Below are positions 1 to 38,642 of a DNA stretch of 39,612 bases, in pieces. Below the pieces are notes generated by a model. The model did no database searches. It was given only the letters and a program-made list of their open reading frames with translations, and had not been told where the DNA came from. Each line of letters begins with the position of its first letter. The first letter of the stretch is position 1. Position numbers and translations under genes: made by a program. This DNA is from a virus, in the IMG/VR virus record IMGVR_UViG_3300021449_000180; one strand, written 5' to 3'.

Positions 1-55
1 AGTAGCCCCAGGCCGTTTTCGGGGTTCGCGGGGAGGTCCAGCGACCCTTCGTCGG
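1..55. repeat. 55-nt terminal direct repeat, identical to 39558-39612 (assembly overlap, or a circular/terminally redundant genome)
   Basis: Bases 1-55 (agtagccccaggccg...cccttcgtcgg) are letter-for-letter the last 55 bases of the window. An ORF reads in frame across the join. Confidence 0.95.
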
Positions 56-3311: not shown

Positions 3312-4406
3312 TTAGATGTCTTGAATCACGACGAAGTTGTCGCCGCGCATCACGTGGAACCCGATTTCTTGTTTCGCCGCGAACCAGGTGGTCAGCGGGT
3401 CGTTCTCCGTCCAGGTCTGGGTCATCCAACCGTTCGCGCTGTCGACGCTGACGTCGCCGTGCGGGGCCTGCTGACCCATTTCGTTCAGGCGGTCCAGGAA
3501 CCAGGGCATGAACGCCGACGCCTGGCCGGGGGCGGTGATGACGATGTTGCGGACGTTCGTGGTGCCGTCGTGCGGTTCCAGGACGTTGTCCCGGGCCGCG
3601 TTCGCGGGGTCCGCCACGACGTCGCCGGATGCGTCGACGGGTTCGCCGTCGCTGTTGAACCGCGGGAGTTGCGTGCGGATGGGCCTGATCTGGTCGATCT
3701 GGAAGCTGTCGGCCAACTGCTGTTCGGTCAGCGCGGCGATGCTGTCGTAGTCGCTGGCCAGGTCGTCGTTCAGCTTCATGTCGCGGACGACGTTGGGACT
3801 CATGTAGGCCGTGATGCTGCCGGCCTGTTCCAGCGCCGACCCGTCCTGGCTGATCAGGCTTTCAGCGTCGATGAAGTCGTTCAGCGGTGTGCTGTTCGCG
3901 GAGTCGCTGTACGCGGTCGACGGCGTCAGGACGTGCGAACTGGGGATTTCGGGGTGGGCTGTCGCGCCCTCCGTCCCGATGATCCCGTTGATGTCGCCGT
4001 TGATCGTGCCCTGCCAGGCGACCTGCGCCCGCGTCATCAGGACGTCTTCCATCAGCGCGTCGCTGATGGCGTTGAACAGGTTCAGGATTTCGCGCTGACT
4101 GTTCAGTTCGGTGTCGACCCCTTTCTCCGCCTGAATCTTCTTCTTGAAGGTCGACACCGACAGGTCGCGTTCGCCCAGGTCGCCGATGTCGCCGACGGGG
4201 CTTTCGGACGCCAGGTCCGTCTGCCGCATCGTCGTCCGCAGCCCGTCCATCGTGAAGTGCGTTTCACGACTGTCGGACAGTTCGACCAGCGGGAAGATTT
4301 CCGACGTGACCAGTCGGTTCCCGCCGTCGATCTGCTGGAGTTGCCGGACGATACGGTTCTGGATGGCTTCGGGGCTTCGAAGGTTCGCTTCGCGTAGCGT
4401 GAACAT
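3312..4406 (-). CDS. Major capsid protein (HK97 fold, lambda gpE-like position)
   Basis: 364 aa from the internal ATG at 4406 (MFTLREANL...), 3 nt after the upstream stop. The track ORF extension to 4457 is Arg/His-rich. The gene order protease/scaffold, decoration protein, capsid mirrors lambda C-Nu3-D-E. Confidence 0.75.
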   Translation of the reverse strand: MFTLREANLRSPEAIQNRIVRQLQQIDGGNRLVTSEIFPLVELSDSRETHFTMDGLRTTMRQTDLASESPVGDIGDLGERDLSVSTFKKKIQAEKGVDTELNSQREILNLFNAISDALMEDVLMTRAQVAWQGTINGDINGIIGTEGATAHPEIPSSHVLTPSTAYSDSANSTPLNDFIDAESLISQDGSALEQAGSITAYMSPNVVRDMKLNDDLASDYDSIAALTEQQLADSFQIDQIRPIRTQLPRFNSDGEPVDASGDVVADPANAARDNVLEPHDGTTNVRNIVITAPGQASAFMPWFLDRLNEMGQQAPHGDVSVDSANGWMTQTWTENDPLTTWFAAKQEIGFHVMRGDNFVVIQDI

Positions 4407-7333: not shown

Positions 7334-7365
7334 CTTAAGTCGGCGTGACGCCGTGGCCGCGGGAG
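7334..7365 (-). promoter_or_regulatory. Late-gene element copy (CTCCCGCGGCCACGGCGTCACGCCGACTTAAG on the coding strand)
   Basis: Intergenic. Exact core cgtgacgccgtgg at 7344-7356. The TTAAG box starts 36 nt before the ATG at 7302. Confidence 0.6.
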
Positions 7366-7378
7366 CCAGGCCCAGCCG

Positions 7379-8119
7379 CTACGATACGGGGTTGTCGCCC
7401 TGCACCCTGACGTCGACGCCCGCATCCGACAGCGTGTCCCGAACGCGACGGACCCCCTTCGCCTTCTTCTGGGTCGTTGCGCGATAGTGCGCCAGCGCCG
7501 TCACCGGGTTCAAACTATTTGGTTCGTCGTGGGCGTACACCCAGACCGTGTCGGCCAGGTCAGGGTCGGCGTAGAACGTGATGTGGACCTGTCGAAGCGC
7601 CAGGATGTCGCCCAGCCCCTGGATGAACCGGCCCAGCATCCCCGCAGTCAGGCCCGGCCCCGGGATGGTTCGGGCTGCCGCCCATTCGCGGAGGCCGTCG
7701 CCGATCCAGCGCGGCCCGGCGTACCGCTTCGCCCAGGACCCGTTTTCCGTCCAGCCCTGCCGGTTCGTCTTCACGGACGCCATCGGGTTCCGGGTGTAGT
7801 TCAATTCCATCAGCGTGCGTTCGAATTCTTCTTCGCCCTGCTGGACGATGCCGACCAGTTCGTTCGGCGTCGATCTCCCTTCGGCGTAGAACCCGGGGAA
7901 CGTCGCCGCCAGTCGGTCCAGCATCGGGAGGACGGTCCCGCGGATTTGTTCCCAGAAGTCGTCGTCAGCGCCCAGCGCCCGTTTCCCCAGGACGCCGTAG
8001 AGGAACCACGATCCGATGAACGCCGCGACAGCCGCGGATACCTCCGGGTGGTCTGCGATCAGTTCCATCAGGGGGTCGGTGACGCGGGTGATCTGCGCCG
8101 GGAGTGGTGTCGGTGTCAT
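7379..8119 (-). CDS. Hypothetical protein with an N-terminal hydrophobic helix
   Basis: 246 aa with VSAAVAAFIGSWFLYGVLG near the N-terminus. ATGA overlap with the upstream gene. Less acidic than its neighbours. Confidence 0.6.
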   Translation of the reverse strand: MTPTPLPAQITRVTDPLMELIADHPEVSAAVAAFIGSWFLYGVLGKRALGADDDFWEQIRGTVLPMLDRLAATFPGFYAEGRSTPNELVGIVQQGEEEFERTLMELNYTRNPMASVKTNRQGWTENGSWAKRYAGPRWIGDGLREWAAARTIPGPGLTAGMLGRFIQGLGDILALRQVHITFYADPDLADTVWVYAHDEPNSLNPVTALAHYRATTQKKAKGVRRVRDTLSDAGVDVRVQGDNPVS

Positions 8120-8607
8120 GTGTCAGTGTCGTTGATGTCGGTGGTGGTGGGTGCATCGGCGCGGTCGTGTTCGTCCAGGACGTCGGACAGGTTCGGGACG
8201 TCGTCCGCGTCTACGTCCGGGAGTTTGAACGCCGCGCTTTCCAGGATGCGCTGGATGTTTCTGACGCTATTCCGCCGGTGCGACGGGTCGCCGCCGGTGA
8301 GGCCGCCGTCTGTTGACGACTGGATGGCGTAATGGATGTCGGTCATGCTGAACTGTGCGTGCCGGAACCAGTACCAGCACACTGATTCTTCGAAGGACAA
8401 CCCCTGTTCCAGTAGGCCGGCCAGTGTCGTCGCCTTCGTGTCGACGACGTATTTCGACTTCAGGACGTCCGACAGTGATAGGTCGTCGACGTCGTCCACA
8501 TGGTCCGGCGGGTCGCGGGCGATACGTCGGCTGATGTCGTTCAGCAGTTCCCGTGCTTCTTTATCCACGTAGGCCCTGCGCCCCCAAGCCGTCCCCTTTC
8601 GAACCAT
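8116..8607 (-). CDS. Putative helix-turn-helix DNA-binding protein (sigma-70 region 4 / LuxR-like pattern)
   Basis: 163 aa. GLSFEESVCWYWFRHAQFSMTDIHYAI ... SVRNIQRILESAAFKL resembles a region-4 type HTH. It has its own TTTAAG box upstream. Confidence 0.4.
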   Translation of the reverse strand: MVRKGTAWGRRAYVDKEARELLNDISRRIARDPPDHVDDVDDLSLSDVLKSKYVVDTKATTLAGLLEQGLSFEESVCWYWFRHAQFSMTDIHYAIQSSTDGGLTGGDPSHRRNSVRNIQRILESAAFKLPDVDADDVPNLSDVLDEHDRADAPTTTDINDTDT

Positions 8608-8630: not shown

Positions 8631-8640
8631 CACTTAAACA
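8631..8640 (-). promoter_or_regulatory. TATA-like box (TGTTTAAGTG on the coding strand) 31 nt before the ATG at 8607
   Basis: It lies in the 60-nt gap between the MuF-like gene stop (8668) and the HTH gene start. The spacing fits a leaderless archaeal promoter. Confidence 0.4.
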
Positions 8641-12901: not shown

Positions 12902-12926
12902 GTCTGAATGGAAGCCCAGCGTCGTC

Positions 12927-12958
12927 CTTAAGTCGCCGTGACGCCGTGGCCCCCGGGC
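12927..12958 (-). promoter_or_regulatory. Late-gene element copy (GCCCGGGGGCCACGGCGTCACGGCGACTTAAG on the coding strand)
   Basis: Intergenic. Exact core at 12937-12949. The first T of TTAAG is 30 nt before the portal ATG (12901). Confidence 0.65.
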
Positions 12959-12981
12959 CAGCGGTCACGATGCCGGCGGCG

Positions 12982-13332
12982 TTAGGCGGTCGACCGGATG
13001 AATTCGACCCACGTTCCCAGCACGGTGTATTCGTCGCCGCCCGATGTAGTGACGCTGACTTCCAGCCAGTAGGTCCCGATCAGGCCGCCGGTATCGCTGG
13101 GTTCCAGATGGATGTCGAAGTTCCCCGCCGACCGGTTCGTCCACGTGACGCCGCCGCCGCCAGTAGTCTTCGTGACCCGGACCGTGCCGCCGCGGTCGTC
13201 CGCGATGACAGCCTTCGCGTCACCGCCCGTTAAATTGACTTCGTCCAGCCCCGTGTCTTCGGCGTCGACACCCATGGTTACGCTGTCGCCTTCAACCAGC
13301 GCGTTCACCCCGGTCAGTTGTTCGTAGTTCAT
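12982..13332 (-). CDS. Hypothetical small beta-rich protein
   Basis: 116-aa ORF rich in T/G/V. It overlaps the upstream gene by 4 nt and sits between TerL and the portal. Confidence 0.6.
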   Translation of the reverse strand: MNYEQLTGVNALVEGDSVTMGVDAEDTGLDEVNLTGGDAKAVIADDRGGTVRVTKTTGGGGVTWTNRSAGNFDIHLEPSDTGGLIGTYWLEVSVTTSGGDEYTVLGTWVEFIRSTA

Positions 13333-13610
13333 CGCTGCACCCCACCCGATAATTCGATGCGGGCGCGGACACTCCCCACCGCATCGACCCGTCGCGTCAG
13401 GTCAGGCTGGTCGCCCAGCGTCGCGCCCGTCGCTGCTTCGGCGTCCCACGGCGTCACGTAATACCCACCCAGACGAAACCCGGTCGTGCGGCCCAGGGTC
13501 CCGCCGCCCACCGTGGCGACGCCCTGCGTGTCGGCGACATCCAGGTCCTGATAGGACCCGCCCAGGGTGAAGCCTGCTGGGCCGCCCAGCGTCGCGCCTC
13601 CATCGGTCAT
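13329..13610 (-). CDS. Hypothetical protein with TLGGxxGFxLGGxY repeats
   Basis: 93 aa containing TLGGPAGFTLGGSY and TLGRTTGFRLGGYY. It shares 44/48 nt (13551-13598) with 34426-34473 in the post-tape-measure gene. Confidence 0.6.
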   Translation of the reverse strand: MTDGGATLGGPAGFTLGGSYQDLDVADTQGVATVGGGTLGRTTGFRLGGYYVTPWDAEAATGATLGDQPDLTRRVDAVGSVRARIELSGGVQR

Positions 13611-13635: not shown

Positions 13636-13667
13636 CTAAAGCGGACGTGACGCCGTGGACCCCGGGG
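13636..13667 (-). promoter_or_regulatory. Late-gene element copy (CCCCGGGGTCCACGGCGTCACGTCCGCTTTAG on the coding strand)
   Basis: Exact core at 13646-13658. The TTTAG box starts 30 nt before the ATG at 13610. It begins right after the stop at 13668. Confidence 0.65.
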
Positions 13668-13892
13668 TTAGTTCCCGTCGTCGACCAGCAACGCCAGCCC
13701 CGCCGCGATGACCGGGATGACGACCAGATGGAACAGCAGCAGTTCTGCCAAGCGTTCACCGTACCGGTTCACGTACACCGTGGTCTGATAGTCGTGGATG
13801 TAGGCGACAGCCCAGATGAGATACGTGATCAGCGACAGGGCGAACATGGCCCCGACAGACTGGACCTTCAGGAACAACCGCCAGTCCATCAC
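13668..13892 (-). CDS. Small membrane protein (two predicted TM helices)
   Basis: 74 aa with hydrophobic stretches VGAMFALSLITYLIWAVAYI and LLLFHLVVIPVIAAGLALLV. Its start overlaps the TerL stop (GTGATG). Confidence 0.6.
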   Translation of the reverse strand: MMDWRLFLKVQSVGAMFALSLITYLIWAVAYIHDYQTTVYVNRYGERLAELLLFHLVVIPVIAAGLALLVDDGN

Positions 13893-15502
13893 CCGACGAC
13901 CGCCCCTGGGTCGATCACTTCAGCGTCACCTTCGAAGCCTTCATAGCACGCCATCATCGCGCCATCAGCGATGTCCGGGCTATGCCCCAGATGATTCGGT
14001 TTCTTCACGTCGTCCTTCCCCTTCAGGACCAGCACGTCCTCCCCGCGGAACGACCGTTCATCCAACCGGTACACCCGCGCCGCCACCCGTAGTTCCCGTT
14101 CCAGGTCGCTGTTCGGCGGGACCAACAGCCGCCCGTCCTTCAACGCGTTCCCCAGGTCAACCGCCGCTTCCGTCCGCTTGTTCCGGTACCGAACGTCCTC
14201 CCGCGGGTCGTCGTCCCGACTGTCGACTTCCGACCCCTTAAATCGGCGGACGCGATCCCGCGCCCGACGGACGTTATCCGCCACCCCGGACCCCTCCCCG
14301 ATGGCGTCGATCAGGAACAACCCCCGCCTGGGGAGGCGGTCGTCGGTCGCCAGGAACAGGTCTTCGTTCTCCGGGTGATCGTTCACCCGGTCCTTCAGGA
14401 CGACGTCCAGCAGGCCGGTGTCCCAGCGGGCGACGATGACCGTCCGGTCCCCGCCGTCACGGGCGACGTCCCCGCCCATCTGCTGGACGACCGTGCCTTT
14501 CGCTGCTGATGGTGTCGCGCCGTCGTCAGTGACGACGCGGTACATTTCGACCGCCTGATCGACGTGGCGTTCATACCAGGGCCGGAGCGTTCCGCGGCCT
14601 GTCGGCGGCATCACGCCCAGGCGTTTCCGGTACCAGCGCGGGTCCAACGTTCGCCAGTCGTCCCGCGCGACACGCTTCCCGTCTTCCGTCGTGACGGCCT
14701 GTCGGACGTCGTCGACGCCAGGCCAGGGGCGTCCGTTCCAGGATTCGTAGTCTTCTTTGATCAGGTCCAGTTCGACCAGCCCCGCGATGCCATCGTGGTC
14801 GTCGCCATCAGGGAGTTCCCCCAGGTCGCGCTTGACGTTGTGGCTGTCGAAACTGTCGAATTCGATGGTGTGCCAGCGCGGGTCGTCCCACTTCTGAAAC
14901 GCGACGTCACCCCGATCCTGCGGCGGGTTACAGATGGCGACGCAGACGTCGTCCGTCGACGATGCGGTCGACGTCGCCGCGTCGAAGTGGCCCGCGCCGA
15001 CGTCCGGTTTGTCGGCTTCGTCGATAACGACGAACGCCGCCCGCCCATGCCGCCCCTCTAAGTTGCGGGGGTCCCGCGGGCTTCTGAACTTGATCCACCA
15101 CTCCGGGAATTCGTCGTCCGGGAATTCGATCCGGGGAGCGTTTTGCTTCGCCTCCGCCTGAATCGGATACGCTTGTTTCGCGCGTTGATGGATCGTCTGA
15201 AGGAACGGCCAGGACGTGTCCTTCAGCGTTGGATAGTTCCCCGACGTCGTCAGCCCGACGCTGTTCAACCGGGTCATCACGTAGTGATACTGCGCCAGCA
15301 TCACCCCGGCGGTCTTCCCGGTCCCGTTCCCTGACCAGACCAGGACGCGGTGATGGTTCTGGCAGGCCCGCAGTATCTCTTTTTGCGTGTCGGCCAGGTC
15401 GAAGCCCAGGTCCTGGTAGAACTGGATCGGTCGGTCGCGGTAGAAGTCGATTAGGTCCGCCGCGTCGTCAACATCATCGACGCGGTTCCCGTCAGCGGCC
15501 AT
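13889..15502 (-). CDS. terL: Terminase large subunit
   Basis: 537 aa. Walker A VWSGNGTGKTAG and Walker B AAFVVIDEADK. Size and position are typical of TerL. Confidence 0.85.
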   Translation of the reverse strand: MAADGNRVDDVDDAADLIDFYRDRPIQFYQDLGFDLADTQKEILRACQNHHRVLVWSGNGTGKTAGVMLAQYHYVMTRLNSVGLTTSGNYPTLKDTSWPFLQTIHQRAKQAYPIQAEAKQNAPRIEFPDDEFPEWWIKFRSPRDPRNLEGRHGRAAFVVIDEADKPDVGAGHFDAATSTASSTDDVCVAICNPPQDRGDVAFQKWDDPRWHTIEFDSFDSHNVKRDLGELPDGDDHDGIAGLVELDLIKEDYESWNGRPWPGVDDVRQAVTTEDGKRVARDDWRTLDPRWYRKRLGVMPPTGRGTLRPWYERHVDQAVEMYRVVTDDGATPSAAKGTVVQQMGGDVARDGGDRTVIVARWDTGLLDVVLKDRVNDHPENEDLFLATDDRLPRRGLFLIDAIGEGSGVADNVRRARDRVRRFKGSEVDSRDDDPREDVRYRNKRTEAAVDLGNALKDGRLLVPPNSDLERELRVAARVYRLDERSFRGEDVLVLKGKDDVKKPNHLGHSPDIADGAMMACYEGFEGDAEVIDPGAVVG

Positions 15503-18205: not shown

Positions 18206-18229
18206 GCGGGTGGGTGTTGGTCTGGGTGA

Positions 18230-18260
18230 GGTAAGTAGTGGCGTGACGCGGTGGCTGGGG
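18230..18260 (-). promoter_or_regulatory. Late-gene element copy (CCCCAGCCACCGCGTCACGCCACTACTTACC on the coding strand)
   Basis: Core cgtgacgcggtgg at 18242-18254. The CTTACC box starts 30 nt before the ATG at 18205. Confidence 0.55.
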
Positions 18261-18276
18261 TGTCGATAGGGCGTGA

Positions 18277-18300
18277 GGGTAGGGGTGGTGCCGGGTGGGG
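18277..18300 (+). other. Canonical G-quadruplex-forming motif GGGTAGGGGTGGTGCCGGGTGGGG
   Basis: Four G3+ runs with loops of 7 nt or less, inside a G+T-rich ORF-free tract. Confidence 0.5.
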
Positions 18301-18328
18301 TGGCCGGCGCGACGTGACGACAAGTTGG

Positions 18329-18371
18329 CCCCCGCGGCCTTCGGATGGGTTGTCCTGTCGGCCAGCGGGGG
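18329..18371. other. Stable GC hairpin (11-bp stem with one bulge, 20-nt loop)
   Basis: cccccgcggcc (18329-18339) pairs with ggcc-a-gcggggg (18360-18371). Confidence 0.5.
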
Positions 18372-18514
18372 GTTGCGACGATGTCGTGGGGTAGCTATGG
18401 TGCGTGCGGGACGCCCTCTTTGGACGGATGCCCTATTGGGGGCGTGTCGCCGGGGGCGTTCGTGGATGGTGTCGTGTGAGGGTGATCACTCCGTGTGGGT
18501 GGTTGTCGGGGTGG

Positions 18515-18545
18515 TATTTCAGTCAGCGTGACGCGGTGGCGGGGT
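18515..18545 (-). promoter_or_regulatory. Orphan late-gene element copy (ACCCCGCCACCGCGTCACGCTGACTGAAATA on the coding strand)
   Basis: Core at 18527-18539 overlaps the last codons and stop of the 129-aa gene. No ORF follows for about 290 nt. Confidence 0.45.
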
Positions 18546-18912
18546 CGTCCATGTTGATGTCGGGGTCGATCTGGTAGGCCTGGACGTGCTGGATGTTGTG
18601 GACGGTGGCGTTGTCGACGACGTCTTCGACGTAGGCTTTCAACCGGGTCGGGGTTGGGCCGTCGGCGTGGCTGCCAGTGTCAGTGTGGGTGTCGCTGTTG
18701 GTGTCGACCAGGACCAGCGTTTGTTGTCGTCCGCTGGGCTGGTAGGCGACCGTGGTGATGTAGACGTCGTGACCCCAGTCGTCTGGGTCGTCTGCGGGCG
18801 TCAGGACGTACCTGATGGGGACTTCGGTGCCTGGGCGGGTGGTGGCGTAGGCTGCGAAGACGCCCAGCGTGATGGCCAGGAGGATCGCCAGCGTCGCGGC
18901 GATGGGGTCCAT
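18523..18912 (-). CDS. Hypothetical protein with an N-terminal TM helix
   Basis: 129 aa with N-terminus IAATLAILLAITLGVFAAYA. It is the last gene of the early block. Confidence 0.6.
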   Translation of the reverse strand: MDPIAATLAILLAITLGVFAAYATTRPGTEVPIRYVLTPADDPDDWGHDVYITTVAYQPSGRQQTLVLVDTNSDTHTDTGSHADGPTPTRLKAYVEDVVDNATVHNIQHVQAYQIDPDINMDDPATASR

Positions 18913-26856: not shown

Positions 26857-27444
26857 CTATAGGGGTCCGCTGTCGCTGTAGCCGAAGGTTGCGTCTAAGA
26901 GGACGATGCGGCCAGCGTCGGCGTCGATGCCGATGACGTCCCAGGGGCCGACGCCGACGTACCGTTGGCCCAGCCGGCGGACGGCGGTGACGCTGACGTC
27001 AGGGTCGCAGGTGACGGTCAGTTCCGTCGGTCGCGTGCGGCGAACGGTGTAGTCGCCTGCTGGGCGGTCTTCGTCGATGACCGCCGCGGCGCTTTCGGTG
27101 GACTGGGCGACCGCGTGCCGCTGCCGTCGATCCAGGCGTTCGATGATGTCGTCCTGGATGGCGTCCGGGTCGGTCAGCGTGACGAAGGTCGCGGAGCCAA
27201 CGCCGTCACGCCGGCACTCCGGGCAAACCCCCGACCGTTCGATGCGGCCCGCCGCTGATCGGCCTGTCTGGGGCGACAGCGGCGTGCCGCACCGGTGACA
27301 GTCGTACTCCATCGGCGTCCCCGTTCGCGGCGTTACGTTCTCCGTGTCGGTGCCGGCGTCGTCGTGGGCGTCCAGTTGGTCGGTGATCATATCGACGTGT
27401 GCGTCGCGGGTCGGGATGTCGTCGGGGTCAGTCATCGTCATCAC
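26857..27444 (-). CDS. Zinc-ribbon protein, paralogous N-terminus to 20777-21094
   Basis: 195-aa track ORF. The likely start is MTDPDDIPTRD (ATG 27435). It contains CHRCGTPLSPQTGRSAAGRIERSGVCPEC. Confidence 0.6.
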   Translation of the reverse strand: MMTMTDPDDIPTRDAHVDMITDQLDAHDDAGTDTENVTPRTGTPMEYDCHRCGTPLSPQTGRSAAGRIERSGVCPECRRDGVGSATFVTLTDPDAIQDDIIERLDRRQRHAVAQSTESAAAVIDEDRPAGDYTVRRTRPTELTVTCDPDVSVTAVRRLGQRYVGVGPWDVIGIDADAGRIVLLDATFGYSDSGPL

Positions 27445-27867: not shown

Positions 27868-28221
27868 TTAGCTCCCGTCAGGGAAGAACGTCGACTCAAA
27901 CCGGGACTGGTCCATCCCGTCCTGGCGGCGTTCGTCGTCACGTTCCAGCGTCGCGCGAAGGTCATCGACGTCGTGGCTGTCGCAGTAGGGGAGTGCGTCC
28001 AGGTCGTCGACGTGGTCGACGAACGCCGACCGTCGACGCCCCGGAACGGGCGGGTTACAGACGATGCAGTAGTCCCGGTCATCACCGCGTCGGCGGCGGC
28101 AGAAGGCGTGGTGGCCGTCAGCCTGCCGTCGCCCGCAGTCCGGGCATTTCGGCCCGGACATCGCCCGGTCGATGTCGCTGGGCGTACAGCCCGGCGGCAG
28201 CCGTGGATACCGGTCTTTCAT
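27868..28221 (-). CDS. Zinc-finger protein
   Basis: 117 aa from ATG 28221, with ATGA overlap. It contains CPDCGRRQADGHHAFC and CIVC...C. Confidence 0.55.
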   Translation of the reverse strand: MKDRYPRLPPGCTPSDIDRAMSGPKCPDCGRRQADGHHAFCRRRRGDDRDYCIVCNPPVPGRRRSAFVDHVDDLDALPYCDSHDVDDLRATLERDDERRQDGMDQSRFESTFFPDGS

Positions 28222-28517: not shown

Positions 28518-28889
28518 TTAGTAGGGAGTGCGGCGCTGGCGGGCCACTTCGCGCTGGTTACAGTTGTGACAGGCGATCTGTTCGCCTGTGGTGTCGCCCC
28601 GGAACCAGCCAACGGGGCTGTTGTCGTCGCTGTCGTCCGGTTCTGAACACAATGGACACATGAAGTGTCGTCGTCCGCAGTTGGGACAGTCGAACCGGAG
28701 CGCGGACTGTTGGAACCGATCCCGCAGGTCGTTCCCGCGGTCGTCCGCGCCGGACAGGTGCTGTACGTACCGACCGTGTTCTTCGAAGGTCAGGCTGGTC
28801 GGGTCGGCGTCGGTATCGTCGATGTCGACGTCCAGGTCGTCGCGGTCGTCGTGGAAGCATCGAACCGTCTTCCCGTTGTGTGCTGACAT
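28518..28889 (-). CDS. Zinc-ribbon protein, first gene of the early block
   Basis: 123 aa with three CxxC pairs (CPNC, CPLC, CHNC). It is preceded by the 860-nt ORF-free region. Confidence 0.6.
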   Translation of the reverse strand: MSAHNGKTVRCFHDDRDDLDVDIDDTDADPTSLTFEEHGRYVQHLSGADDRGNDLRDRFQQSALRFDCPNCGRRHFMCPLCSEPDDSDDNSPVGWFRGDTTGEQIACHNCNQREVARQRRTPY

Positions 28890-29012
28890 CGTTCGGTCCT
28901 GTGCGCCAGCGGTGTCGGCCTGGCGCGGGCCGACCGCCCCGCCAGTCGCCCCGACCCGTCGCGGGCCAGGGCGAAGGGCGGTCTGACGGCAGAACCGTCT
29001 GTTGATTCACCC

Positions 29013-29020
29013 CTTATAGA
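29013..29020 (-). promoter_or_regulatory. TCTATAAG box (candidate early promoter, proximal)
   Basis: The coding strand reads GTGTTCTATAAGGGGTG, about 127 nt upstream of the first early ATG (28889). The same octamer recurs at 29504-29511. Confidence 0.35.
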
Positions 29021-29503
29021 ACACGTGTCGTCGGTGCGTTCAGCGGGACCTGAACGCGCGATGGGGTCCGCCGCGCCCTACGGCCAAGGGGGTCGACCTG
29101 CGGGCGCTGGGCCAGTCGCCTGTAACAGCAGTTGAAGCCCGATGTCGCGCCGCCCGGAAGTTCCCGTCACCTGTTGCGTCATCCCCCAGGACAGGGGTCG
29201 GCGTCATCGGGTCGCCCGGTCAATCCGTGGGCGGCGCGGTGTGATGCGTCCGACATCCCGCGGCAGAAATGTGGCCCGGAGCGTCGGGGGCGGGCTGGTC
29301 GACGTCGCGGCGTGACGCCAGGAAGCCCGGGGGCGGCCCGATTATCGACGTCATCTAGAAGCCCCAACCGCCGATGGCGCGATGCCAGTCTGCGACCAGG
29401 TCCGCCCCGCCAGGTGACGCGCCCCACGTACTGTGTCCCCGCGGGGCCAGGGTGGCTATCAGATGTGTCGCCAGTTCCTACCCCCACCTTCGAAGGTTAG
29501 CCA

Positions 29504-29511
29504 CTTATAGA
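29504..29511 (-). promoter_or_regulatory. TCTATAAG box (candidate early promoter, distal; could also fire on the plus strand)
   Basis: The coding strand reads GAATCTATAAGTGGCT. It is an A/T box in otherwise GC-rich non-coding DNA. Confidence 0.3.
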
Positions 29512-29598
29512 TTCGGGTGACTTTCGAAACCCATGATGGCGACCGCAGGCGCGGTCCTTTAGTCACTGCACGGCCTACGCATGGGTGGGTCGCGGGTC

Positions 29599-29617
29599 GA
29601 TTCGAACGGTTCGAATC
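29599..29617. repeat. 19-nt perfect palindrome GATTCGAAC-G-GTTCGAATC
   Basis: Read directly. It is part of a cluster of four TTCGAA sites at 29489, 29523, 29601 and 29610. Confidence 0.8.
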
Positions 29618-29726
29618 CATCAGCCCCGCCAGGCGGCCCGCACCCCGCTTCTGGACGTCACGTTACCCAGGCCGACGCCCAACCACCGACCCACCATCGA
29701 ACACGGACAGCGCCGCCAGCAGCCCC

Positions 29727-29744
29727 GCCAGCGCCGACGCTGGC
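29727..29744 (-). terminator. Hairpin just after the last late gene (7-bp stem GCCAGCG/CGCTGGC, 4-nt loop)
   Basis: It lies 9 nt downstream of the tail gene stop at 29753. No clear oligo-T tract follows. Confidence 0.3.
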
Positions 29745-29752
29745 GGCACGGC

Positions 29753-33888: not shown

Positions 33889-33922
33889 GCCAGCGTCTAC
33901 TCCGTCGTTCCCCAGCGTCGCC

Positions 33923-33958
33923 CTTAATCAGCCGTGACGCCGTGGCCCCGGGGTCGTC
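33923..33958 (-). promoter_or_regulatory. Late-gene element copy (GACGACCCCGGGGCCACGGCGTCACGGCTGATTAAG on the coding strand)
   Basis: Exact core at 33933-33945. The TTAAG box is 39 nt before the ATG at 33888. Confidence 0.6.
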
Positions 33959-34038: not shown

Positions 34039-34650
34039 TTATAGGTCCGATCCCAGACCGTCTTTGAGGTTCCGGCGGGACCCATACTGGTCGCCGCGGG
34101 CCAGGACGGTAAACCGGATGCCCAGCCGGGCCATGTCCTGGACGTACCGGGTTTTATCGTCGACGTCGTCCAGCACGACCCACAGGCCGTCCGTTGCGTC
34201 GACTTCCCGGCCCGGTTCCAGTTTCACGATGATGCTGTCGACGCTGGCGTCGCCCGGTGTGTGTTCGCTGATCCGGGGCGTCCCGTCGATGGCTTCAGTG
34301 ATCACGTAGCGCCCCGCCCAGCGGGTGTATTCCCGAACCGCTTTGTACCGGTCGACCTGCGTCCCGAAGCCCTGCATCGACCCGACCGTCCCACCGGTCG
34401 CCTGCGTATCCCCGTCCGCGTCGGTATAGGAGCCGCCCAGGGTGAAGCCCGCTGGGCCGCCCAGCGTGCCGCCGGTGACGTGCGTGATGGCGGTTGTGTC
34501 CTGGGTGTTCCTGAAGAAGACCAGGTCGACGCTGTAGGTCTTCCCGATGCGGTACTCCGGCATATCGGCGTCGACCCGGTCGACCAGGATGCCACCGCCG
34601 CTTCGATCCGGGTCGAACGTCCATTCACGTCCGCTGATGCCTACTATCAT
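34039..34650 (-). CDS. Putative distal tail protein (Dit position)
   Basis: 203 aa, immediately after the tape measure gene. It contains TLGGPAGFTLGGSY, shared with the 93-aa gene. Confidence 0.5.
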   Translation of the reverse strand: MIVGISGREWTFDPDRSGGGILVDRVDADMPEYRIGKTYSVDLVFFRNTQDTTAITHVTGGTLGGPAGFTLGGSYTDADGDTQATGGTVGSMQGFGTQVDRYKAVREYTRWAGRYVITEAIDGTPRISEHTPGDASVDSIIVKLEPGREVDATDGLWVVLDDVDDKTRYVQDMARLGIRFTVLARGDQYGSRRNLKDGLGSDL

Positions 34651-34653: not shown

Positions 34654-37062
34654 TTATCGGGTTTCCTGTCGCCGCGTCCGACGGGTGTTCTGTCGGTCCT
34701 GTCGGTCCTGGTTCTGTTCGACAGCGTCTTCGATGAACCGCGCCAGCGGGTTGTCGCCCTGGACGTCCAGCACCGCGCGGACGGCCTGTTCGTTCTGCTG
34801 TTGCTGTTGTTCCCGGTTGATCGACCGGCGTTCGGCGTCCAGCCCGGTGTCGACGTCGACGTCGTCCAGCGTCCCGACGTTGACGCCGTCCACACCCGGG
34901 ATTTCGCTTACTTTCGCAGCGACATCGTCCAGCGTCGACAGGAACGCGTTGATCGCGTCGACCGCGCTATTGATGAAGCCTTCCAGGGCGTTCTCCATCA
35001 CGCTGATCGCGCCGTTCCAGACGCTCAGCAGGACGTTGTAGACGGTGTCACCCCAGACCTGTATCTGCGTCAGCATCGTTGCCAGCGCCCCGACCAGGAA
35101 GTCTATCATCGCGGTGAAGGCGTCCTGGAACAACCCGCCGATACCGGTCAGGATGCCGGCGAACGCCTGCACTAACTGCGGTCCCCAACCGCCGACGATC
35201 CCCAGGATGCGGTTAATGTACCGGTCGACGAACCCGGCGATGGCGTCCCAGGCTTCACCCCAGTCGCCCTGTAGAATGTTCAGGAAGACCAGGACGGTCG
35301 TGATGATGGCGTCCAGCGCCGTCCCGATGACGGCGATGATGATGTCGAAGGCGAACCTGACGACCGCCATGATGGTTTCACCGTGCGCCTCCCAGAACGC
35401 CGCTAACGCCAGTAGGGTGGGCCGGACGATGGACATGATCGCGTCAATGGTTTCACGCGTTTCGCGGACTATATCATCGAAATTGGCCGCCCAGACCCGC
35501 GCCAGTTCGTTGATTAATGGGGCGGTGAAGTTCAGTAAGACGAACCTGATGACTGGCAGAACGACGTTTCGAAGGATGTCAACGACCGATTCCATCGCCT
35601 CTATCACCGTCACCGCGAACGCCGCGAAGTCCTCCACCGACAGCGCGCCGCTGATGGCGTCACCGGCGGGCTGTATCGCGGAAAGGAAGTCTTCCACGAC
35701 ACTGATGACGGCCTGCACCCCCTGCACGATGCTGTCCACAAGCCCGGACACGGCGTCGCCGCCGCCCAGTTCCTGGAACGCGACGCTGAAATCCCTGATG
35801 AACGACGTCACCGCGTCGATGACCGGCGACAAAGAATCGACCAGGTTGCGGAACGTGTCCATCAGGCCGCCCAGGGCTTCGTTCGTGGCCTCTTGGATGC
35901 CCATAAAGTTCGCCCGGTACGCCGCCGCGAACGCCGCCACGGCGGCCACGGCCACCCCTATCGGTCCGGTCAATGTGGCGACTGCGGACGCGACGCTGAA
36001 GATGGCCGGCGCAGTAATCGCCGCCGCGACCGCCAACCGCCGCAGGCCGTCGTCCAGCGACAGGACGAATTCGGCGACGCCGTCGATGATGTCCGCCAGG
36101 TTAGCGATGGCTGGGAGGACGATGGTCGCCGCGACGATCCCCAGTTCGTGCAGCGTCGGGAGTAAGTCCGCGAACGACCCAGCGATGGCCATCAGCGGGT
36201 CGGTCAGTCGTTCAGTTGCCCGCGTCATCGCGTCCCAGATGCCGGGGCCGTTCTGCATCAGCCACTCCATTACGTCGATCAACTTTGGGAGGGCGATTTC
36301 TGCCAGGTCAAACAGGAACCCGGTCAGCATTGGGATGGCTTCGGCGGCGGTCCCGCCCAGCTCCCGGATCGTTTCAGCGAACTGGTCCAGCGGCCCCAGG
36401 CTGTCGACGATGGCCTGGACCAGTTCCGGCAGGGCGCGGACAGCATCGACCAGCAGCGGACCGAACACGTCCCCCAGCGGTTCGATGATCTCCATGATTT
36501 CACCGCGGACGTCCTGGAACGCGGCTTTTAGTTCATCCATGTGCGTGACGACACCGACCGCGGTCAACCCGCCCAGGACGCCCGCCAGCCCGACCGCTGC
36601 CGCCGCGACGACGCCCAGGACTGACGCCAGCGGCAGCAGGATCGTCGACAGCGTCAGCAGACTGGGGATCAGCGACAATACCGCGACGGTCGATAAAGAG
36701 GACATAGCGACCGACAGGCCGCCCGTCGACACGGTCAGGCGGCTGAACAGCCCGGACGTGACGGCGGCGCTACGCCCGGCATCGTCCAGTTCGTCCGCCG
36801 CTTCATCAGCGCGGCTTTGAACCACCTGCATCGCCGCCGCCAGTGTCTCTGCGTCGCCTGTCGTTCCTTCGATGGCGTCGCCGGCGACCGCCGCTGACGT
36901 CGTCGTGTCGTCCAGTTCGTCCCCGACTTCATCCATCGCCGACTGCGCCGGTTGGGCTGACCGGGACAGGTCCCCCAGTTCGTCCCCGACGTCATCGACG
37001 GCCTGCTGGGCCGCCTCCGTGAACGCGTCGATCAGTATCTCTACTTTGGCGCTTTCCGGCAT
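34654..37062 (-). CDS. Tape measure protein
   Basis: 802 aa, alpha-helical and Ala/Leu/Val-rich with long hydrophobic runs (VAMSSLSTVAVLSLIPSLLTLSTILLPLASVLGVVAAAAVGLAGVLGG). It is preceded by two small overlapping genes. Confidence 0.85.
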   Translation of the reverse strand: MPESAKVEILIDAFTEAAQQAVDDVGDELGDLSRSAQPAQSAMDEVGDELDDTTTSAAVAGDAIEGTTGDAETLAAAMQVVQSRADEAADELDDAGRSAAVTSGLFSRLTVSTGGLSVAMSSLSTVAVLSLIPSLLTLSTILLPLASVLGVVAAAAVGLAGVLGGLTAVGVVTHMDELKAAFQDVRGEIMEIIEPLGDVFGPLLVDAVRALPELVQAIVDSLGPLDQFAETIRELGGTAAEAIPMLTGFLFDLAEIALPKLIDVMEWLMQNGPGIWDAMTRATERLTDPLMAIAGSFADLLPTLHELGIVAATIVLPAIANLADIIDGVAEFVLSLDDGLRRLAVAAAITAPAIFSVASAVATLTGPIGVAVAAVAAFAAAYRANFMGIQEATNEALGGLMDTFRNLVDSLSPVIDAVTSFIRDFSVAFQELGGGDAVSGLVDSIVQGVQAVISVVEDFLSAIQPAGDAISGALSVEDFAAFAVTVIEAMESVVDILRNVVLPVIRFVLLNFTAPLINELARVWAANFDDIVRETRETIDAIMSIVRPTLLALAAFWEAHGETIMAVVRFAFDIIIAVIGTALDAIITTVLVFLNILQGDWGEAWDAIAGFVDRYINRILGIVGGWGPQLVQAFAGILTGIGGLFQDAFTAMIDFLVGALATMLTQIQVWGDTVYNVLLSVWNGAISVMENALEGFINSAVDAINAFLSTLDDVAAKVSEIPGVDGVNVGTLDDVDVDTGLDAERRSINREQQQQQNEQAVRAVLDVQGDNPLARFIEDAVEQNQDRQDRQNTRRTRRQETR

Positions 37063-37825: not shown

Positions 37826-37849
37826 ACGTCTGCGTCCGTCAGCGTCGTT

Positions 37850-37885
37850 CTTAGTCGGGCGTGACGCCGTGGCCCCGGGGTCGTC
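37850..37885 (-). promoter_or_regulatory. Late-gene element copy (GACGACCCCGGGGCCACGGCGTCACGCCCGACTAAG on the coding strand)
   Basis: Exact core at 37860-37872. The CTAAG box is 29 nt before the ATG at 37825. It starts 2 nt after the stop at 37888. Confidence 0.65.
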
Positions 37886-38526: not shown

Positions 38527-38545
38527 CGCCGTCCCTCCGTTGAAG

Positions 38546-38636: not shown

Positions 38637-38642
38637 ACGTAC

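What the first reader, a model, noticed from the sequence alone, without database searches (positions are those of the whole stretch)
12927..12958. Conserved late-gene element: CCAC(G/C)GCGTCACG core plus a TTAAG-type box about 30 nt before start codons (7 clear copies and 1 degenerate)
The plus-strand 13-mer cgtgacgccgtgg is exact at five sites: 7344-7356, 12937-12949, 13646-13658, 33933-33945 and 37860-37872. The variant cgtgacgcggtgg occurs at 18242-18254 and 18527-18539, and a degenerate cgtgacgtagtgg at 283-295. All copies are intergenic except 18527, which overlaps a stop codon. I saw no copy inside the body of a credible CDS.

On the coding strand the element reads, for example, GACGACCCCGGGGCCACGGCGTCACGGCTGATTAAG. 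Four copies carry a flanking CCCCGGGG-type palindrome. Each core is followed by an A/T box (CTTAAG, CTTTAG, ATTAAG, CTAAG, CTTACC, CTAAC). In the seven gene-proximal copies the first T of that box lies 29-31 nt before a start codon, or 36 and 39 nt in two cases. The genes served are protease/scaffold (7302), portal (12901), the 93-aa gene (13610), the packaging block (18205), fibre (33888), the chaperone/tape-measure block (37825) and tail tube (248).

That spacing is what an archaeal TATA box driving leaderless or short-leader mRNA would show. The extra ~20-nt GC-rich core is much longer than a BRE and is absent upstream of the early genes. It therefore looks like the operator of a virus-specific late-gene regulator that partitions the morphogenesis genes into about seven units.
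Basis: partly seen in the sequence, partly recalled or inferred. Interest (0 to 1): 0.75.

Follow-up and report, generated by a model that had tools for sequence, protein, structure and literature searches.

The report
Conserved late-gene promoter of haloarchaeal viruses
A 13-base motif sitting exactly four bases in front of a TATA-like box marks the start of nearly every structural-gene block in this haloarchaeal tailed-virus genome. The same arrangement is kept in distant relatives, including the cultured virus HHTV-1, so it is very probably a virus-specific promoter class, a known kind of element in a new sequence form.

Summary
CCAC(G/C)GCGTCACG occurs 7 times on the coding strand, plus 1 degenerate copy, against 0.04 expected. 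Each copy is followed after 4 nt by a CTTAAG-like box. In seven copies the core ends 34-44 nt before an ATG.

The window is a complete circular 39,557-bp genome with all genes on one strand. Relatives down to 43% terminase identity keep CCA-N3-CGTCACG-N4-TATA box at the same gene junctions, while the surrounding intergenic DNA has diverged. A matrix trained only on other lineages recovers exactly the eight copies. A sister group that includes the isolate HHTV-1 carries a near-palindromic version, CCAGCGT-S-AYGCTGG, abutting TTTAT.

The motif is absent from early genes, from CGphi46, and from 185,579 species genomes except as random single hits.

Best reading: a promoter class for packaging and structural genes, mostly giving leaderless mRNA, with a factor-binding element placed where the usual A-rich BRE would lie. 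The factor is unknown. A clade-conserved 163-aa protein with its own plain promoter and weak sigma-region-4-like signals is the best candidate.

The closest known cases are the HF2 intergenic-repeat promoters. I rate this a new member of a known kind, of moderate interest.

The parts
12927..12958 (-). Promoter element of the given finding. Reading the - strand: GCCCGGGGG palindrome-like flank, core CCACGGCGTCACG (12937-12949), spacer gcga, box CTTAAG (12927-12932). ATG of the 1037-aa gene (portal by position) at 12901; core end to ATG 35 nt.
   Evidence: PWM score 24.3; same junction occupied in L001-3, L004, L012, L013, L023, L090, L093
7334..7356 (-). Copy upstream of the 774-aa gene (head-assembly block that runs on to the major capsid protein). 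Core 7344-7356, box CTTAAG 7334-7339, ATG 7302 (41 nt; short conserved GTAGSC leader).
   Evidence: 24.8 bits. The alignment of the orthologous junction in 10 genomes has CCA, CGTCACG and TT of the box as its only invariant columns.
13636..13658 (-). Copy upstream of the 93-aa and 116-aa genes. Core 13646-13658, box CTTTAG, ATG 13610 (35 nt).
   Evidence: 24.5 bits; conserved in L001-3
18232..18254 (-). Copy (CCACCGCGTCACG) upstream of the 64-aa gene that opens the packaging block (terS-like, Hjc, terL). Weak box TACTTA, ATG 18205 (36 nt).
   Evidence: 16.3 bits; L001 equivalent
18517..18539 (-). Copy at the early/late boundary, in the last codons of gene 18523-18912. Box CTGAAAT. Followed by about 290 nt of conserved, C-rich, ORF-free sequence rather than a gene.
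   Evidence: 21.1 bits; equivalent boundary copies followed by 350-460-nt gene-free gaps in L090, L091, L092
33923..33945 (-). Copy upstream of the 399-aa tail-fibre-like gene. CCCCGGGG flank, box ATTAAG, ATG 33888 (44 nt).
   Evidence: 22.3 bits; conserved in L145-147 and L150
37850..37872 (-). Copy upstream of the 142-aa and 117-aa genes, the tape-measure gene (34654-37062) and the 203-aa gene (34039-34650). CCCCGGGG flank, box ACTAAG, ATG 37825 (34 nt).
   Evidence: 18.5 bits; conserved in L145-148, L150
273..295 (-). Degenerate copy CCACTACGTCACG with box CCTAAC upstream of the tail-tube gene. ATG 248 (34 nt); the gene crosses the circular junction.
   Evidence: (21.0 bits). In close relatives the same site reads CCACCGCGTCACG, and L148-150 have it before the orthologous MSIGQ/MTIG gene.
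13446..13458 (+). Orphan exact 13-mer in the opposite orientation inside the 93-aa gene. It has no correctly spaced A/T box and probably does not function as a promoter.
   Evidence: replaced by CGTGACGCTCCGC or TTGACGCTCCG in L001-3
8116..8607 (-). 163-aa protein, the candidate cognate factor (unproven). It is conserved wherever the motif occurs. The gene sits among motif-driven operons but is not itself preceded by the motif.
   Evidence: AF2 model pLDDT 89.7; BFVD hits to HHTV-1 R4TKS1 (E 3e-6), PH1 M4JGG7, and the HHIV-2 Sigma70_r4_2 protein (E 0.87, not significant); PDB profile hit to sigma region 4 at E 0.22
8633..8638 (-). Plain TTTAAG box 25 nt before ATG 8607 of the 163-aa gene, with no CCA-N3-CGTCACG element. 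This is a contrasting promoter type.
   Evidence: the same motif-free A/T-box promoter precedes the orthologue in L004, L014, L091, L023 and in the sister group

Best explanation
The element is the shared promoter of the packaging, head and tail transcription units of a lytic-looking haloarchaeal siphovirus related to Madisaviridae (HHTV-1).

Anatomy on the coding strand: CCA-N3-CGTCACG, exactly 4 nt, a TATA-like box (consensus CTTAAG), then about 24-25 nt to the ATG. Host RNA polymerase with TBP and TFB would therefore start at or a few bases before the start codon, giving leaderless or very short-leader mRNA.

The 13-bp core sits where a canonical A-rich BRE would lie and reaches about 17 bp upstream of the box. 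Its centre, CGT-C-ACG, is a 7-bp pseudo-palindrome. I take the core to be the binding site of a sequence-specific transcription factor that gives this promoter class its own timing or strength. The most likely model is a virus-encoded positive factor that helps TBP/TFB assemble on a promoter lacking a good BRE. The 163-aa protein at 8116-8607 is the best candidate.

No oligo-T terminators precede the copies. The promoters probably re-initiate or boost transcription within a co-directional gene array rather than defining insulated operons.

Shown: the repeat, its statistics, orientation, spacing, conservation and phyletic distribution.
Inferred: promoter activity, start sites, late timing, existence and identity of the factor, and the sign of control.

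My sub-probabilities:
- promoter: about 0.85-0.9
- dedicated factor site: about 0.75
- factor is virus-encoded: about 0.5
- factor is the 163-aa protein: about 0.3
For: 1. Non-random, oriented and intergenic. There are 8 exact matches against 0.04 expected. De novo, the 8-mers shared by most intergenic segments are pieces of the motif: 7 segments against a shuffle mean of 3.2 and maximum of 5.
2. Counts across 13 clade loci. CGTCACG plus an A/T box occurs 41 times sense and intergenic, 5 times sense and coding, 0 times antisense and intergenic, and 8 times antisense and coding. In about 75 unrelated halovirus loci the same counts are flat: 11, 12, 8, 11.
3. Fixed geometry. The spacer is always 4 nt, and the core end lies 33-36 nt from the ATG in most sites. 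In Haloferax volcanii 72% of mRNAs are leaderless and the TATA motif is TTWT (PMC4983044). In halovirus HF2 the CTTTAAGT motif is an experimentally mapped TATA box (PMC8707807).
4. Phylogenetic footprint. The orthologous junction before the 774-aa gene in 10 genomes keeps only CCA, CGTCACG and TT of the box. Across 32 sites, CCA carries 1.6-2.0 bits although it was not used to select them.
5. A PWM built from 30 sites of other lineages scores exactly the 8 sense copies of the window at 16.3-24.8 bits; the shuffle mean maximum is 9.1.
6. The same junctions are served in relatives: after terL, before the portal, before the scaffold-like gene, and before the tail-tube, chaperone/tape-measure and fibre genes.
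7. The N3 positions are uniform within a genome but differ between lineages: CGG/CCG, TCA/TCC, GCG, TCG, CGC/CTC, GTC. This fits a co-evolving, lineage-specific reader.
8. The sister group, including the isolate HHTV-1, has the near-palindrome CCAGCGT-S-AYGCTGG abutting TTTAT, 34-36 nt before annotated starts. HHTV-1 has 8 copies against 0.17 expected.
9. Restricted distribution. In IMG/VR the contigs hit by the two strict patterns are clade contigs, plus single stray hits in unrelated contigs. In 185,579 species genomes there are 29 single hits, none of them in a genome titled as a haloarchaeon and all in unrelated or unclassified organisms. The motif is absent from CGphi46.
10. The 163-aa gene co-occurs with the motif in both groups and always has its own motif-free A/T-box promoter.
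Against: - There is no transcript, start-site or binding evidence of any kind. 'Late' is inferred from gene function.
- The boxes of several copies are poor TATA boxes (TACTTA, CCTAAC, CTGAAA, ACTAAG).
- Two copies sit 41 and 44 nt from the ATG.
- Copy 18527 has no gene behind it.
- HF2 intergenic-repeat promoters were active in Haloferax volcanii without any viral protein (PMC8707807), so a conserved extension does not by itself prove dependence on a factor.
- In the sister group the palindrome covers the BRE position. In archaea that position is more often used by repressors (my own knowledge).
- The 163-aa protein has no significant match to any DNA-binding family. Pfam gave none. Foldseek against the PDB gave a best E of 0.9. 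The sigma-region-4 hits have E 0.22 and 0.87. The loop between its putative HTH helices is about 8 residues long. Two distant homologues are fused to ParB_N.
- Its co-occurrence with the motif is confounded with common descent.
- Early Zn-finger proteins are equally plausible regulators.
Confidence: 0.55

Rival explanations
1. Same promoters, but the core is a repressor operator. A viral or host dimeric protein sits on the pseudo-palindrome next to or over the BRE position and keeps the structural-gene promoters shut early in infection or in a carrier state. They fire on their own once the repressor is removed.
For: The sister-group version is a 15-bp near-palindrome directly abutting the TATA box and so overlies the BRE position. 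In three window copies GCGTC...GACGC brackets the box. HF2 repeat promoters are constitutively active without viral factors (PMC8707807). Archaeal regulators that overlap BRE/TATA usually repress (own knowledge).
Against: No integrase or other sign of lysogeny was found among 53 proteins, and no provirus appears in species genomes. In the window's clade only the left half and centre are conserved and the spacer next to the box is free, which suits a factor bound upstream of TFB rather than on top of it. The BRE position lacks the A-rich consensus, which suggests weak unaided promoters.
Confidence: 0.17
2. No viral factor is involved. The core is an extended, non-canonical BRE read by one particular host TFB/TBP paralogue, of which haloarchaea carry many. 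The virus channels its structural genes to that host initiation factor.
For: The 3' part of the core plus the spacer occupies the BRE position at a rigid 4-nt distance from the box in every lineage. No recognisable TFB, TBP or HTH family was found in the genome. The CGTSAYR heptamer is kept across viruses of 54-68% GC, which probably infect different genera.
Against: The strict pattern was found in no genome titled as a haloarchaeon among the 185,579 species genomes, so it is not a common host promoter type. The conserved region reaches about 17 bp upstream of the box, beyond the 6-7 bp a TFB reads (own knowledge). The N3 positions are homogeneous within each genome and lineage-specific. Unrelated haloviruses in the same collections lack the motif.
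Confidence: 0.15
3. The element is not primarily transcriptional. It could be a recombination or module-boundary sequence that promotes gene shuffling, like the PeSL-type motifs proposed for T4-like phages and HGTV-1. Or it could be an RNA-level signal, such as a processing site in long polycistronic transcripts.
For: The copies flank small variable gene cassettes: the 73-aa gene is unique to the window, the 93-aa gene occurs only in close relatives, and L093 has an HNH/T5orf172 insertion after terL. Three copies share about 53 nt at 77-85% identity (family D20), which looks like homogenisation. No terminators separate the units. Long processed transcripts are known in phiH1 and HF2 (PMC8707807).
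Against: RNA folding of all eight copies is no better than shuffles, with z from -0.64 to +1.0, so there is no stem-loop. Rfam gave no match. The invariant parts are a short core and an A/T box at promoter distance from start codons, not long homology tracts. Strict strand polarity and fixed distance to the ATG are what a promoter needs. Recombination at shared promoters could be a side effect.
Confidence: 0.05
4. Chance or compositional artefact of a 65% G+C genome.
For: The heptamer CGTCACG alone is common in coding DNA: 29 sense and 10 antisense copies in the window. One inverted 13-mer and one + strand PWM hit inside genes are probably fortuitous.
Against:: the enrichment is orders of magnitude above shuffles, and the motif is conserved across lineages at orthologous junctions.
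Confidence: 0.01

Closest known systems
Intergenic repeats (class I, 58 bp; class II, 29 bp) of halovirus HF2 and other Haloferacalesvirus members (Russ, Pfeiffer and Dyall-Smith 2021, PMC8707807)
   Same: Both are virus-specific sequences repeated in intergenic regions, oriented with the genes, each carrying a TATA-like box (HF2: CTTTAAGT) flanked by extra conserved blocks. Both are conserved in sequence and relative position among related viruses. Different classes serve early-middle and late (morphogenesis) genes. The HF2 authors propose virus-encoded factors that read the conserved blocks.
   Different: There is no sequence relationship beyond the box: the HF2 alpha, beta, gamma and class II strings are absent from the window. 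The virus family is different (myovirus Hafunaviridae versus an HHTV-1-like siphovirus). Here the extra element is a short 13-bp GC-rich core upstream of the box with a pseudo-palindromic centre. HF2's critical extra block (gamma) is at the start site. HF2 has 2 late copies driving a 35-kb transcript, whereas here 8 copies are spread through the late region. HF2 activity and start sites were measured; here nothing has been measured.
Conserved TATA-box-plus-inverted-repeat motif preceding most left-arm ORFs of halovirus HGTV-1, likened to T4-type promoter stem-loops (Sencilo et al. 2013, as summarised in PMC3950731)
   Same: A repeated motif in front of many genes of a haloarchaeal tailed virus, with a TATA-like region combined with dyad symmetry.
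   Different: The HGTV-1 motif is described as a stem-loop-forming inverted repeat and is linked to genome shuffling. The window's copies show no stable fold. Their symmetry is a 7-bp core here and 15 bp in the sister group, which is typical of a protein site. The primary paper was not available, so the sequences could not be compared.
Phage late promoters that depend on a phage activator bound just upstream of the core promoter (Mu C, P2/P4 Ogr/Delta, phi29 p4) (own knowledge)
   Same: One short conserved site at a fixed distance upstream of the core element, in front of each of several late operons, and absent from early promoters. The activator gene is expressed from a different promoter.
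   Different: Those systems use the bacterial sigma-70 machinery, whereas this element would act on archaeal TBP/TFB/RNAP. No activator has been identified here.
Archaeal upstream-activating sites adjacent to the BRE (GvpE at gas-vesicle promoters of haloarchaea; Ptr2 and TFB-RF1 in other archaea; Sta1 on SIRV1 promoters) (own knowledge)
   Same: A factor site immediately upstream of BRE/TATA that recruits TBP or TFB to a weak promoter.
   Different: Those are host regulators, or host factors acting on viral promoters, with unrelated motifs. None is known as a multi-copy, virus-wide promoter signature.
Stoperators of cluster A mycobacteriophages (L5 gp71 sites) (own knowledge)
   Same: A 13-bp asymmetric site in many copies, in short intergenic regions, in one orientation relative to transcription.
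   Different: Stoperators are not tied to a promoter box or to a fixed distance from start codons. They act by blocking elongation in a lysogen. This genome shows no integrase or lysogeny module.

Membership tests
Archaeal (haloarchaeal) TBP/TFB promoter | A/T-rich TATA box about 24-30 nt upstream of the transcription start | tested here: inconclusive
   A/T-rich hexamers (consensus CTTAAG) lie 28-32 nt before the ATG in 5 copies and 36 or 39 nt in 2. The position is conserved in all lineages. This fits leaderless starts (PMC4983044), but the start codon is only a proxy for the start site, and several boxes are weak.
Archaeal (haloarchaeal) TBP/TFB promoter | Purine/A-rich BRE (CGAAA-like) immediately upstream of the TATA box | tested here: not met
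   The 4-nt spacer is G+C-rich and not conserved (0.3-0.6 bits). It is preceded by ACG of the core. No CGAAA-like sequence is present.
Archaeal (haloarchaeal) TBP/TFB promoter | Mapped primary 5' end, or promoter activity in a reporter | not testable with these tools
   No transcript data are available for this uncultured virus or for HHTV-1 in the literature searched.
HF2-type intergenic-repeat promoters (functional class) | Repeat confined to intergenic DNA and oriented with the downstream genes | tested here: met
   Counts are 41 sense-intergenic against 0 antisense-intergenic in clade loci. All 8 window copies are sense. Seven are intergenic, and one spans the last codons and stop of gene 18523-18912.
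HF2-type intergenic-repeat promoters (functional class) | Sequence and relative genomic position conserved among related viruses | tested here: met
HF2-type intergenic-repeat promoters (functional class) | Sequence homology to HF2 class I or II repeats | tested here: not met
   None of the published HF2 motif strings occurs in the window. This is an analogue, not a homologue.
Promoter stem-loops (PeSL-like; T4-type phages, proposed for HGTV-1) | Stable stem-loop formed by an inverted repeat next to the promoter | tested here: not met
   MFE z-scores of the 8 copies range from -0.64 to +1.0 against shuffles.
Stoperator-type repressor sites | Temperate phage with an immunity repressor; sites independent of promoter boxes | tested here: not met
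   No integrase or repressor family was found among 53 proteins. Every functional-looking copy is coupled to an A/T box at 4 nt.
Sigma-70 region 4 / LuxR-type HTH proteins (for the 163-aa candidate factor) | Significant sequence or fold match to the family, with helix - tight turn - recognition helix | tested here: inconclusive
   Pfam gave none at E<=1. The PDB profile hit to sigma region 4 (6pfv) has E 0.22. On a pLDDT 89.7 model, Foldseek against the PDB gave SigL region 4 (3hug) at probability 0.21 and TM 0.40. BFVD gave the HHIV-2 Sigma70_r4_2 protein at E 0.87 and the PH1 75-aa protein at E 0.08, TM 0.68. The inter-helix loop is about 8 residues.

The most novel reading that the evidence does not exclude
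The 163-aa sigma-region-4-like protein (HHTV-1 gp16 family) would be a virus-encoded promoter-specificity subunit for the archaeal transcription machinery. It would act as a functional analogue of a phage sigma factor or appropriator: it docks on CCA-N3-CGT-S-ACG at the BRE-proximal position and substitutes for the TFB-BRE contact. Protein and site would have co-diversified across a whole family-level group of haloarchaeal siphoviruses.
Probability: 0.18. Interest if true: 0.78.

Novelty: new member of a known kind. Interest (0 to 1): 0.45.

Why it matters
Temporal control of gene expression in archaeal tailed viruses is almost unknown. The only dissected case of repeated viral promoters is HF2, where the factor that reads the repeats is still missing.

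This element offers a compact and sharply defined alternative: 13 bp at a fixed 4-bp distance from the TATA box. It comes with natural variation across at least seven lineage variants.

A cultured representative exists. HHTV-1 grows on Haloarcula hispanica, a host that is genetically tractable to my knowledge, and carries 8 copies of the sister version.

A short list of candidate readers can be tested directly. The system could show how an archaeal promoter lacking a BRE is switched on, or kept off, by a small factor.

The motif is also a practical marker. It finds members of this virus group and delimits their late transcription units in metagenomes.

Tried and rejected
- Megablast of 10 kb against 50,697 phage records gave no match. 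The relationship had to be traced through proteins.
- Pfam and PHROGs on the large proteins and on candidate regulators were mostly empty.
- The first AlphaFold model of the 163-aa protein, built from 14 sequences, was poor (pLDDT 59.5), and its Foldseek hits were meaningless globins. A 32-sequence alignment gave pLDDT 89.7, but there was still no significant PDB match.
- The profile of the 163-aa family against PDB sequences gave nothing below E 0.1.
- Pfam on its distant homologues showed only ParB_N fusions in two of them.
- Rfam on the whole window gave nothing. ARAGORN found no tRNA.
- RNA folding of the copies showed no structure, so stem-loop, terminator and processing-signal readings were dropped. 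No oligo-T runs precede the copies.
- GGACGGGTCC, highly repeated in L013 and L012, turned out to be mostly coding Asp-Gly-Ser and unrelated to the element.
- The inverted 13-mer at 13446 and the + strand PWM hit at 13218 were examined as possible antisense promoters. I rejected them as conserved features because both are absent in close relatives.
- The scan of species genomes for proviruses or host promoters carrying the strict pattern returned only random single hits.
- The metagenome scan with the terminase profile added only one useful locus.
- The primary HHTV-1/HGTV-1 genome paper (PMC3737338) is not held. I therefore could not exclude that the HHTV-1 version of the motif was noted there. 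The 2014 review mentions such a motif only for HGTV-1.
Full report
**1. What the window is**

All roughly 56 predicted genes lie on the - strand. The first 55 nt equal the last 55 nt, and three relatives read straight across the junction. The window is therefore a complete circular assembly of 39,557 bp, with a 335-aa tail-tube gene spanning the ends.

G+C content is 65.5%. Gene assignments:
- The large terminase subunit (13889-15502) is 36% identical to that of Halorubrum virus CGphi46.
- The major capsid protein (3312-4406) is 54% identical to that of Haloarcula hispanica tailed virus 1 (HHTV-1, Madisaviridae).
- Tape measure, small terminase subunit, Mu-F, tail tube, PCNA and Hjc are recognisable.
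- No integrase, TFB, TBP or standard HTH family was found among 53 proteins.
- There is no nucleotide match in 50,697 phage records.

This is an uncultured haloarchaeal siphovirus. In the direction of transcription the genome runs as follows:
- an 863-nt gene-free region;
- the early and replication genes (28889 to 18523);
- the packaging genes;
- the head genes;
- the tail genes.

**2. Checking the observation**

There are 8 exact matches to CGTGACGCSGTGG against 0.04 expected.

On the coding strand each sense copy reads CCACSGCGTCACG, then exactly 4 nt, then an A/T-rich hexamer. In the seven gene-proximal copies the core ends 34-36 nt (five copies) or 41 and 44 nt (two copies) before an ATG.

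Three things needed correcting:
- One exact copy in the opposite orientation lies inside the 93-aa gene (13446-13458). It has no properly spaced box and is mutated in the 95-98% relatives, so I treat it as a non-functional orphan.
- Copy 18527 lies in the last codons of a gene and is followed by about 290 nt without an ORF.
- Some gene names rest on position only.

An unbiased 8-mer count over intergenic segments puts pieces of this motif at the top: 7 segments against a shuffle mean of 3.2 and maximum of 5.

**3. Relatives**

Loci were gathered in three ways: terminase-centred, contigs carrying graded terminase homologues, and capsid-centred. Together they give a series from 98% to about 40% identity.

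The exact 13-mer survives only in the closest relatives. Every lineage down to 43% terminase identity nevertheless has the same architecture:

| Lineage | Form of the element |
|---|---|
| L004, L014 | CCATC(A/C)-CGTCACG |
| L012, L090, L091, L094 | CCAGCG-CGTCACG |
| L013 | CCATCG-CGTCACG |
| L092, L110 | CCAC(G/T)C-CGTCACG |
| L023 | CCAGTC-CGTCACG |

Each form is followed after 4 nt by CTTAAG, CTTATA, TTAAAG or TTTAAT, and after about 33-45 nt by an ATG.

Across 32 sites the consensus is CCA-N3-CGTCACG-N4-(C)TTAAG. The CCA triplet carries 1.6-2.0 bits although it was not used for selection. The N3 triplet is almost uniform within a genome but differs between lineages.

In 13 clade loci, CGTCACG plus an A/T box is sense and intergenic 41 times and antisense and intergenic 0 times. 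In about 75 other halovirus loci the counts are flat.

The orthologous junction in front of the 774-aa gene was aligned for ten genomes. Only CCA, CGTCACG and TT of the box are invariant, plus a short GTAGSC just before the ATG.

A weight matrix built from 30 sites of other lineages, with the window's own lineage left out, finds the eight sense copies of the window at 16.3-24.8 bits. It finds one further + strand hit at 13218 (19.6 bits), which is not conserved in close relatives.

The tail-module copies (tail tube, chaperone/tape measure, fibre) are conserved in the capsid-centred loci as well.

**4. A wider family of the element**

Two more distant contigs (L160 and L161, capsid 42-43%) carry TTCCAG-CGTCACG-N4-TATA-like box.

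A sister group (L151-L158, capsid 49-57%) carries (A/T)TCCAGCGT-S-AYGCTGG directly abutting TTTAT(A), about 30 nt before ATGs. This is a 15-bp near-palindrome. Its centre corresponds to the window's heptamer, and CGT-C-ACG is itself a 7-bp pseudo-palindrome with a free central base.

L154 is part of the genome of the isolate HHTV-1. In the annotated HHTV-1 record:
- CCAGCGKGATG occurs 8 times against 0.17 expected.
- Five copies end 34-36 nt before annotated starts: gp11, gp12, gp33, gp38 and, on the other strand, gp18.
- Further copies lie before gp19, gp28 and gene 1.

**5. Distribution**

The strict pattern CCANNNCGTCACGNNNNCTTAAG hits only clade contigs in IMG/VR, plus one stray hit. A CTTAT version gives clade contigs plus single stray hits in unrelated, mostly low-G+C contigs.

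In one genome for each of 185,579 bacterial and archaeal species the strict pattern gives 29 single hits. None is in a genome titled as a haloarchaeon; all are in unrelated or unclassified organisms.

CGphi46 lacks the motif. It is therefore neither a common host promoter motif nor a general halovirus feature. It belongs to this virus group.

**6. What it most likely is**

Geometry and context are those of a haloarchaeal promoter for leaderless or short-leader mRNA:
- 72% of Haloferax volcanii mRNAs are leaderless, and the TATA motif there is TTWT (PMC4983044).
- In halovirus HF2 the repeat motif CTTTAAGT was shown by primer extension and mutagenesis to be the TATA box (PMC8707807).

The usual A-rich BRE (CGAAA) is missing. 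Its place is taken by ACG of the core plus a free G+C-rich spacer.

The conserved core reaches about 17 bp upstream of the box, further than a TFB is expected to read (own knowledge). It has a dyad centre. Its variable positions are homogeneous within each genome. I therefore read it as the site of a dedicated transcription factor.

No oligo-T terminators precede the copies. No RNA structure is predicted at them. They probably act as internal promoters within a co-directional array.

The sign of control is open. An upstream position with a weak BRE favours activation. The sister-group palindrome lying over the BRE position keeps repression alive as a rival.

**7. Candidate factor**

The 163-aa protein (8116-8607) is conserved in all clade loci that cover its position (44-97% identity). 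It is absent from CGphi46 and present in the sister group.

Its gene lies between motif-driven operons. In every lineage it has its own A/T-box promoter about 31 nt before the ATG (TTTAAG, TTATAT, ATTAAT, TTTACA) and no core.

What the searches say about the protein:
- The family is small: 35 cluster representatives among 1.84 billion proteins. It has no Pfam match.
- A 32-sequence alignment gave a confident all-helical model (pLDDT 89.7).
- Foldseek found its HHTV-1 homologue (R4TKS1, which maps to gp16; E 3e-6) and a 75-aa protein of virus PH1 (E 0.08, TM 0.68).
- Weaker, non-significant hits go to the HHIV-2 Sigma70_r4_2 protein, other sigma-region-4 proteins, SigL region 4 in the PDB, and a sigma factor by sequence profile (E 0.22).

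These hints agree with each other, but none is significant. The loop between the two putative HTH helices is long. Two distant homologues are fused to ParB_N.

Three early Zn-finger proteins (28518-28889, 27868-28221, 26857-27441) are equally legitimate candidates.

Its homologues were not looked for, because the related loci do not cover that region.

**8. Comparison with what is known**

The closest precedent is the set of HF2 intergenic repeats. They are the same kind of element (a virus-specific, repeated, conserved, promoter-carrying sequence, with separate classes for temporal groups). They differ in sequence, in the position of the extra element, in copy layout and in virus family.

HGTV-1 has a TATA-plus-inverted-repeat motif likened to T4 promoter stem-loops. 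The window's copies do not fold.

Functionally the element resembles activator-dependent phage late promoters and archaeal upstream activating sites (own knowledge). Stoperators are similar in form, but they are not coupled to a promoter box and belong to temperate phages.

I found no description of the CGTCACG motif, or of the HHTV-1 version, in the searchable literature. The primary HHTV-1 genome paper could not be read.

**9. Verdict**

The finding is real and its promoter reading is strongly supported by comparative evidence. The claim of a virus-specific late regulator is plausible but untested.

It is a new member of a known kind of element. Its added value is threefold:
- it is sharply defined;
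- it is conserved across a family-level virus group, with informative natural variation;
- it is present in a cultured virus, which makes the factor question directly testable.

I rate the interest as moderate.

Noticed in passing
window 1-55 and 39558-39612: The first and last 55 nt are identical, an assembly overlap of a circular or circularly permuted genome. The true unit length is 39,557 bp. A 335-aa tail-tube gene (start 248, - strand) spans the junction.
   Followed up: yes
window 28890-29752: An 863-nt gene-free stretch lies upstream of the first early gene. It holds four exact CTGGCGGGGC on the coding strand (28936, 29404, 29623, 29722) and none exact elsewhere in the genome. TGGCGGGGCGGTCG, about 60 nt before the first early ATG, is also present in L012, L023 and L092. 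There are two CTATAAG boxes. This may be a replication origin with iterons or an early-promoter control region.
   Followed up: partly
window 18206-18522 (- strand): About 290 nt downstream of promoter copy 18527 has no ORF and is C-rich. It contains GGAGTGATCACC and a CCCCCGC...GCGGGGG hairpin. It is 95% identical to L001 and 78% to L093, about as conserved as the neighbouring genes. MFE z is -2.2. Equivalent boundary copies in L090, L091 and L092 are followed by 350-460-nt gene-free gaps. In L090 and L092 a GGTGATC (complement of the 16S 3' end) lies about 25 nt after the box. This may be a non-coding RNA, a long leader or the packaging site.
   Followed up: partly
window 38527-38797: A strikingly A/T-rich 271-nt spacer precedes the 212-aa gene inserted between the tail-tube and chaperone genes. 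It contains TTTGTAATTAG twice, an inverted CAAACTAATTA, and a (TAC)5 run. It looks like a separate, operator-rich promoter region of a moron-like gene. The N-terminus of the protein looks RHH-like by eye only.
   Followed up: no
window 13218-13236 (+ strand): A motif-like sequence, CCTTCGCGTCACC-gccc-GTTAAAT, points antisense inside the 116-aa gene (PWM 19.6 bits). Together with the inverted 13-mer at 13446-13458, this gives two antisense-oriented look-alikes within 400 nt. Neither is conserved in L001-3 or L145-147.
   Followed up: partly
window 12910-12962, 33906-33958, 37833-37885: Three copies share about 53 nt at 77-85% identity, including CGACGCTG just downstream of the box. With GCGTC of the core this forms an inverted repeat bracketing the TATA-like box. 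It suggests either gene conversion between copies or a second protein site.
   Followed up: no
L013 (16.6 kb) and L012: GGACGGGTCC occurs 14 times on one strand in L013 and 8 times in L012, mostly in frame as Asp-Gly-Ser in coding DNA. This is far more than other 10-mers. The cause is unknown.
   Followed up: partly
L023 about 3400-3460: The gene-free gap before the gene at 3464 contains GGTTCGAATCC (tRNA T-arm-like). It may be a tRNA or an attachment-site fragment in this relative. ARAGORN was not run on it.
   Followed up: no
L093 7629-8614: The 83% relative has an HNH endonuclease and a T5orf172/MUG113 gene inserted directly after terL, upstream of a motif copy. This looks like homing-endonuclease traffic at the promoter-bearing junctions.
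   Followed up: no
L151-L158 and HHTV-1 (L179 about 14060-14113): The promoter of the gp16-family gene in the sister group carries its own conserved TTCCCG about 3-5 nt upstream of the A/T box. This may be a distinct promoter class for the candidate regulator.
   Followed up: no
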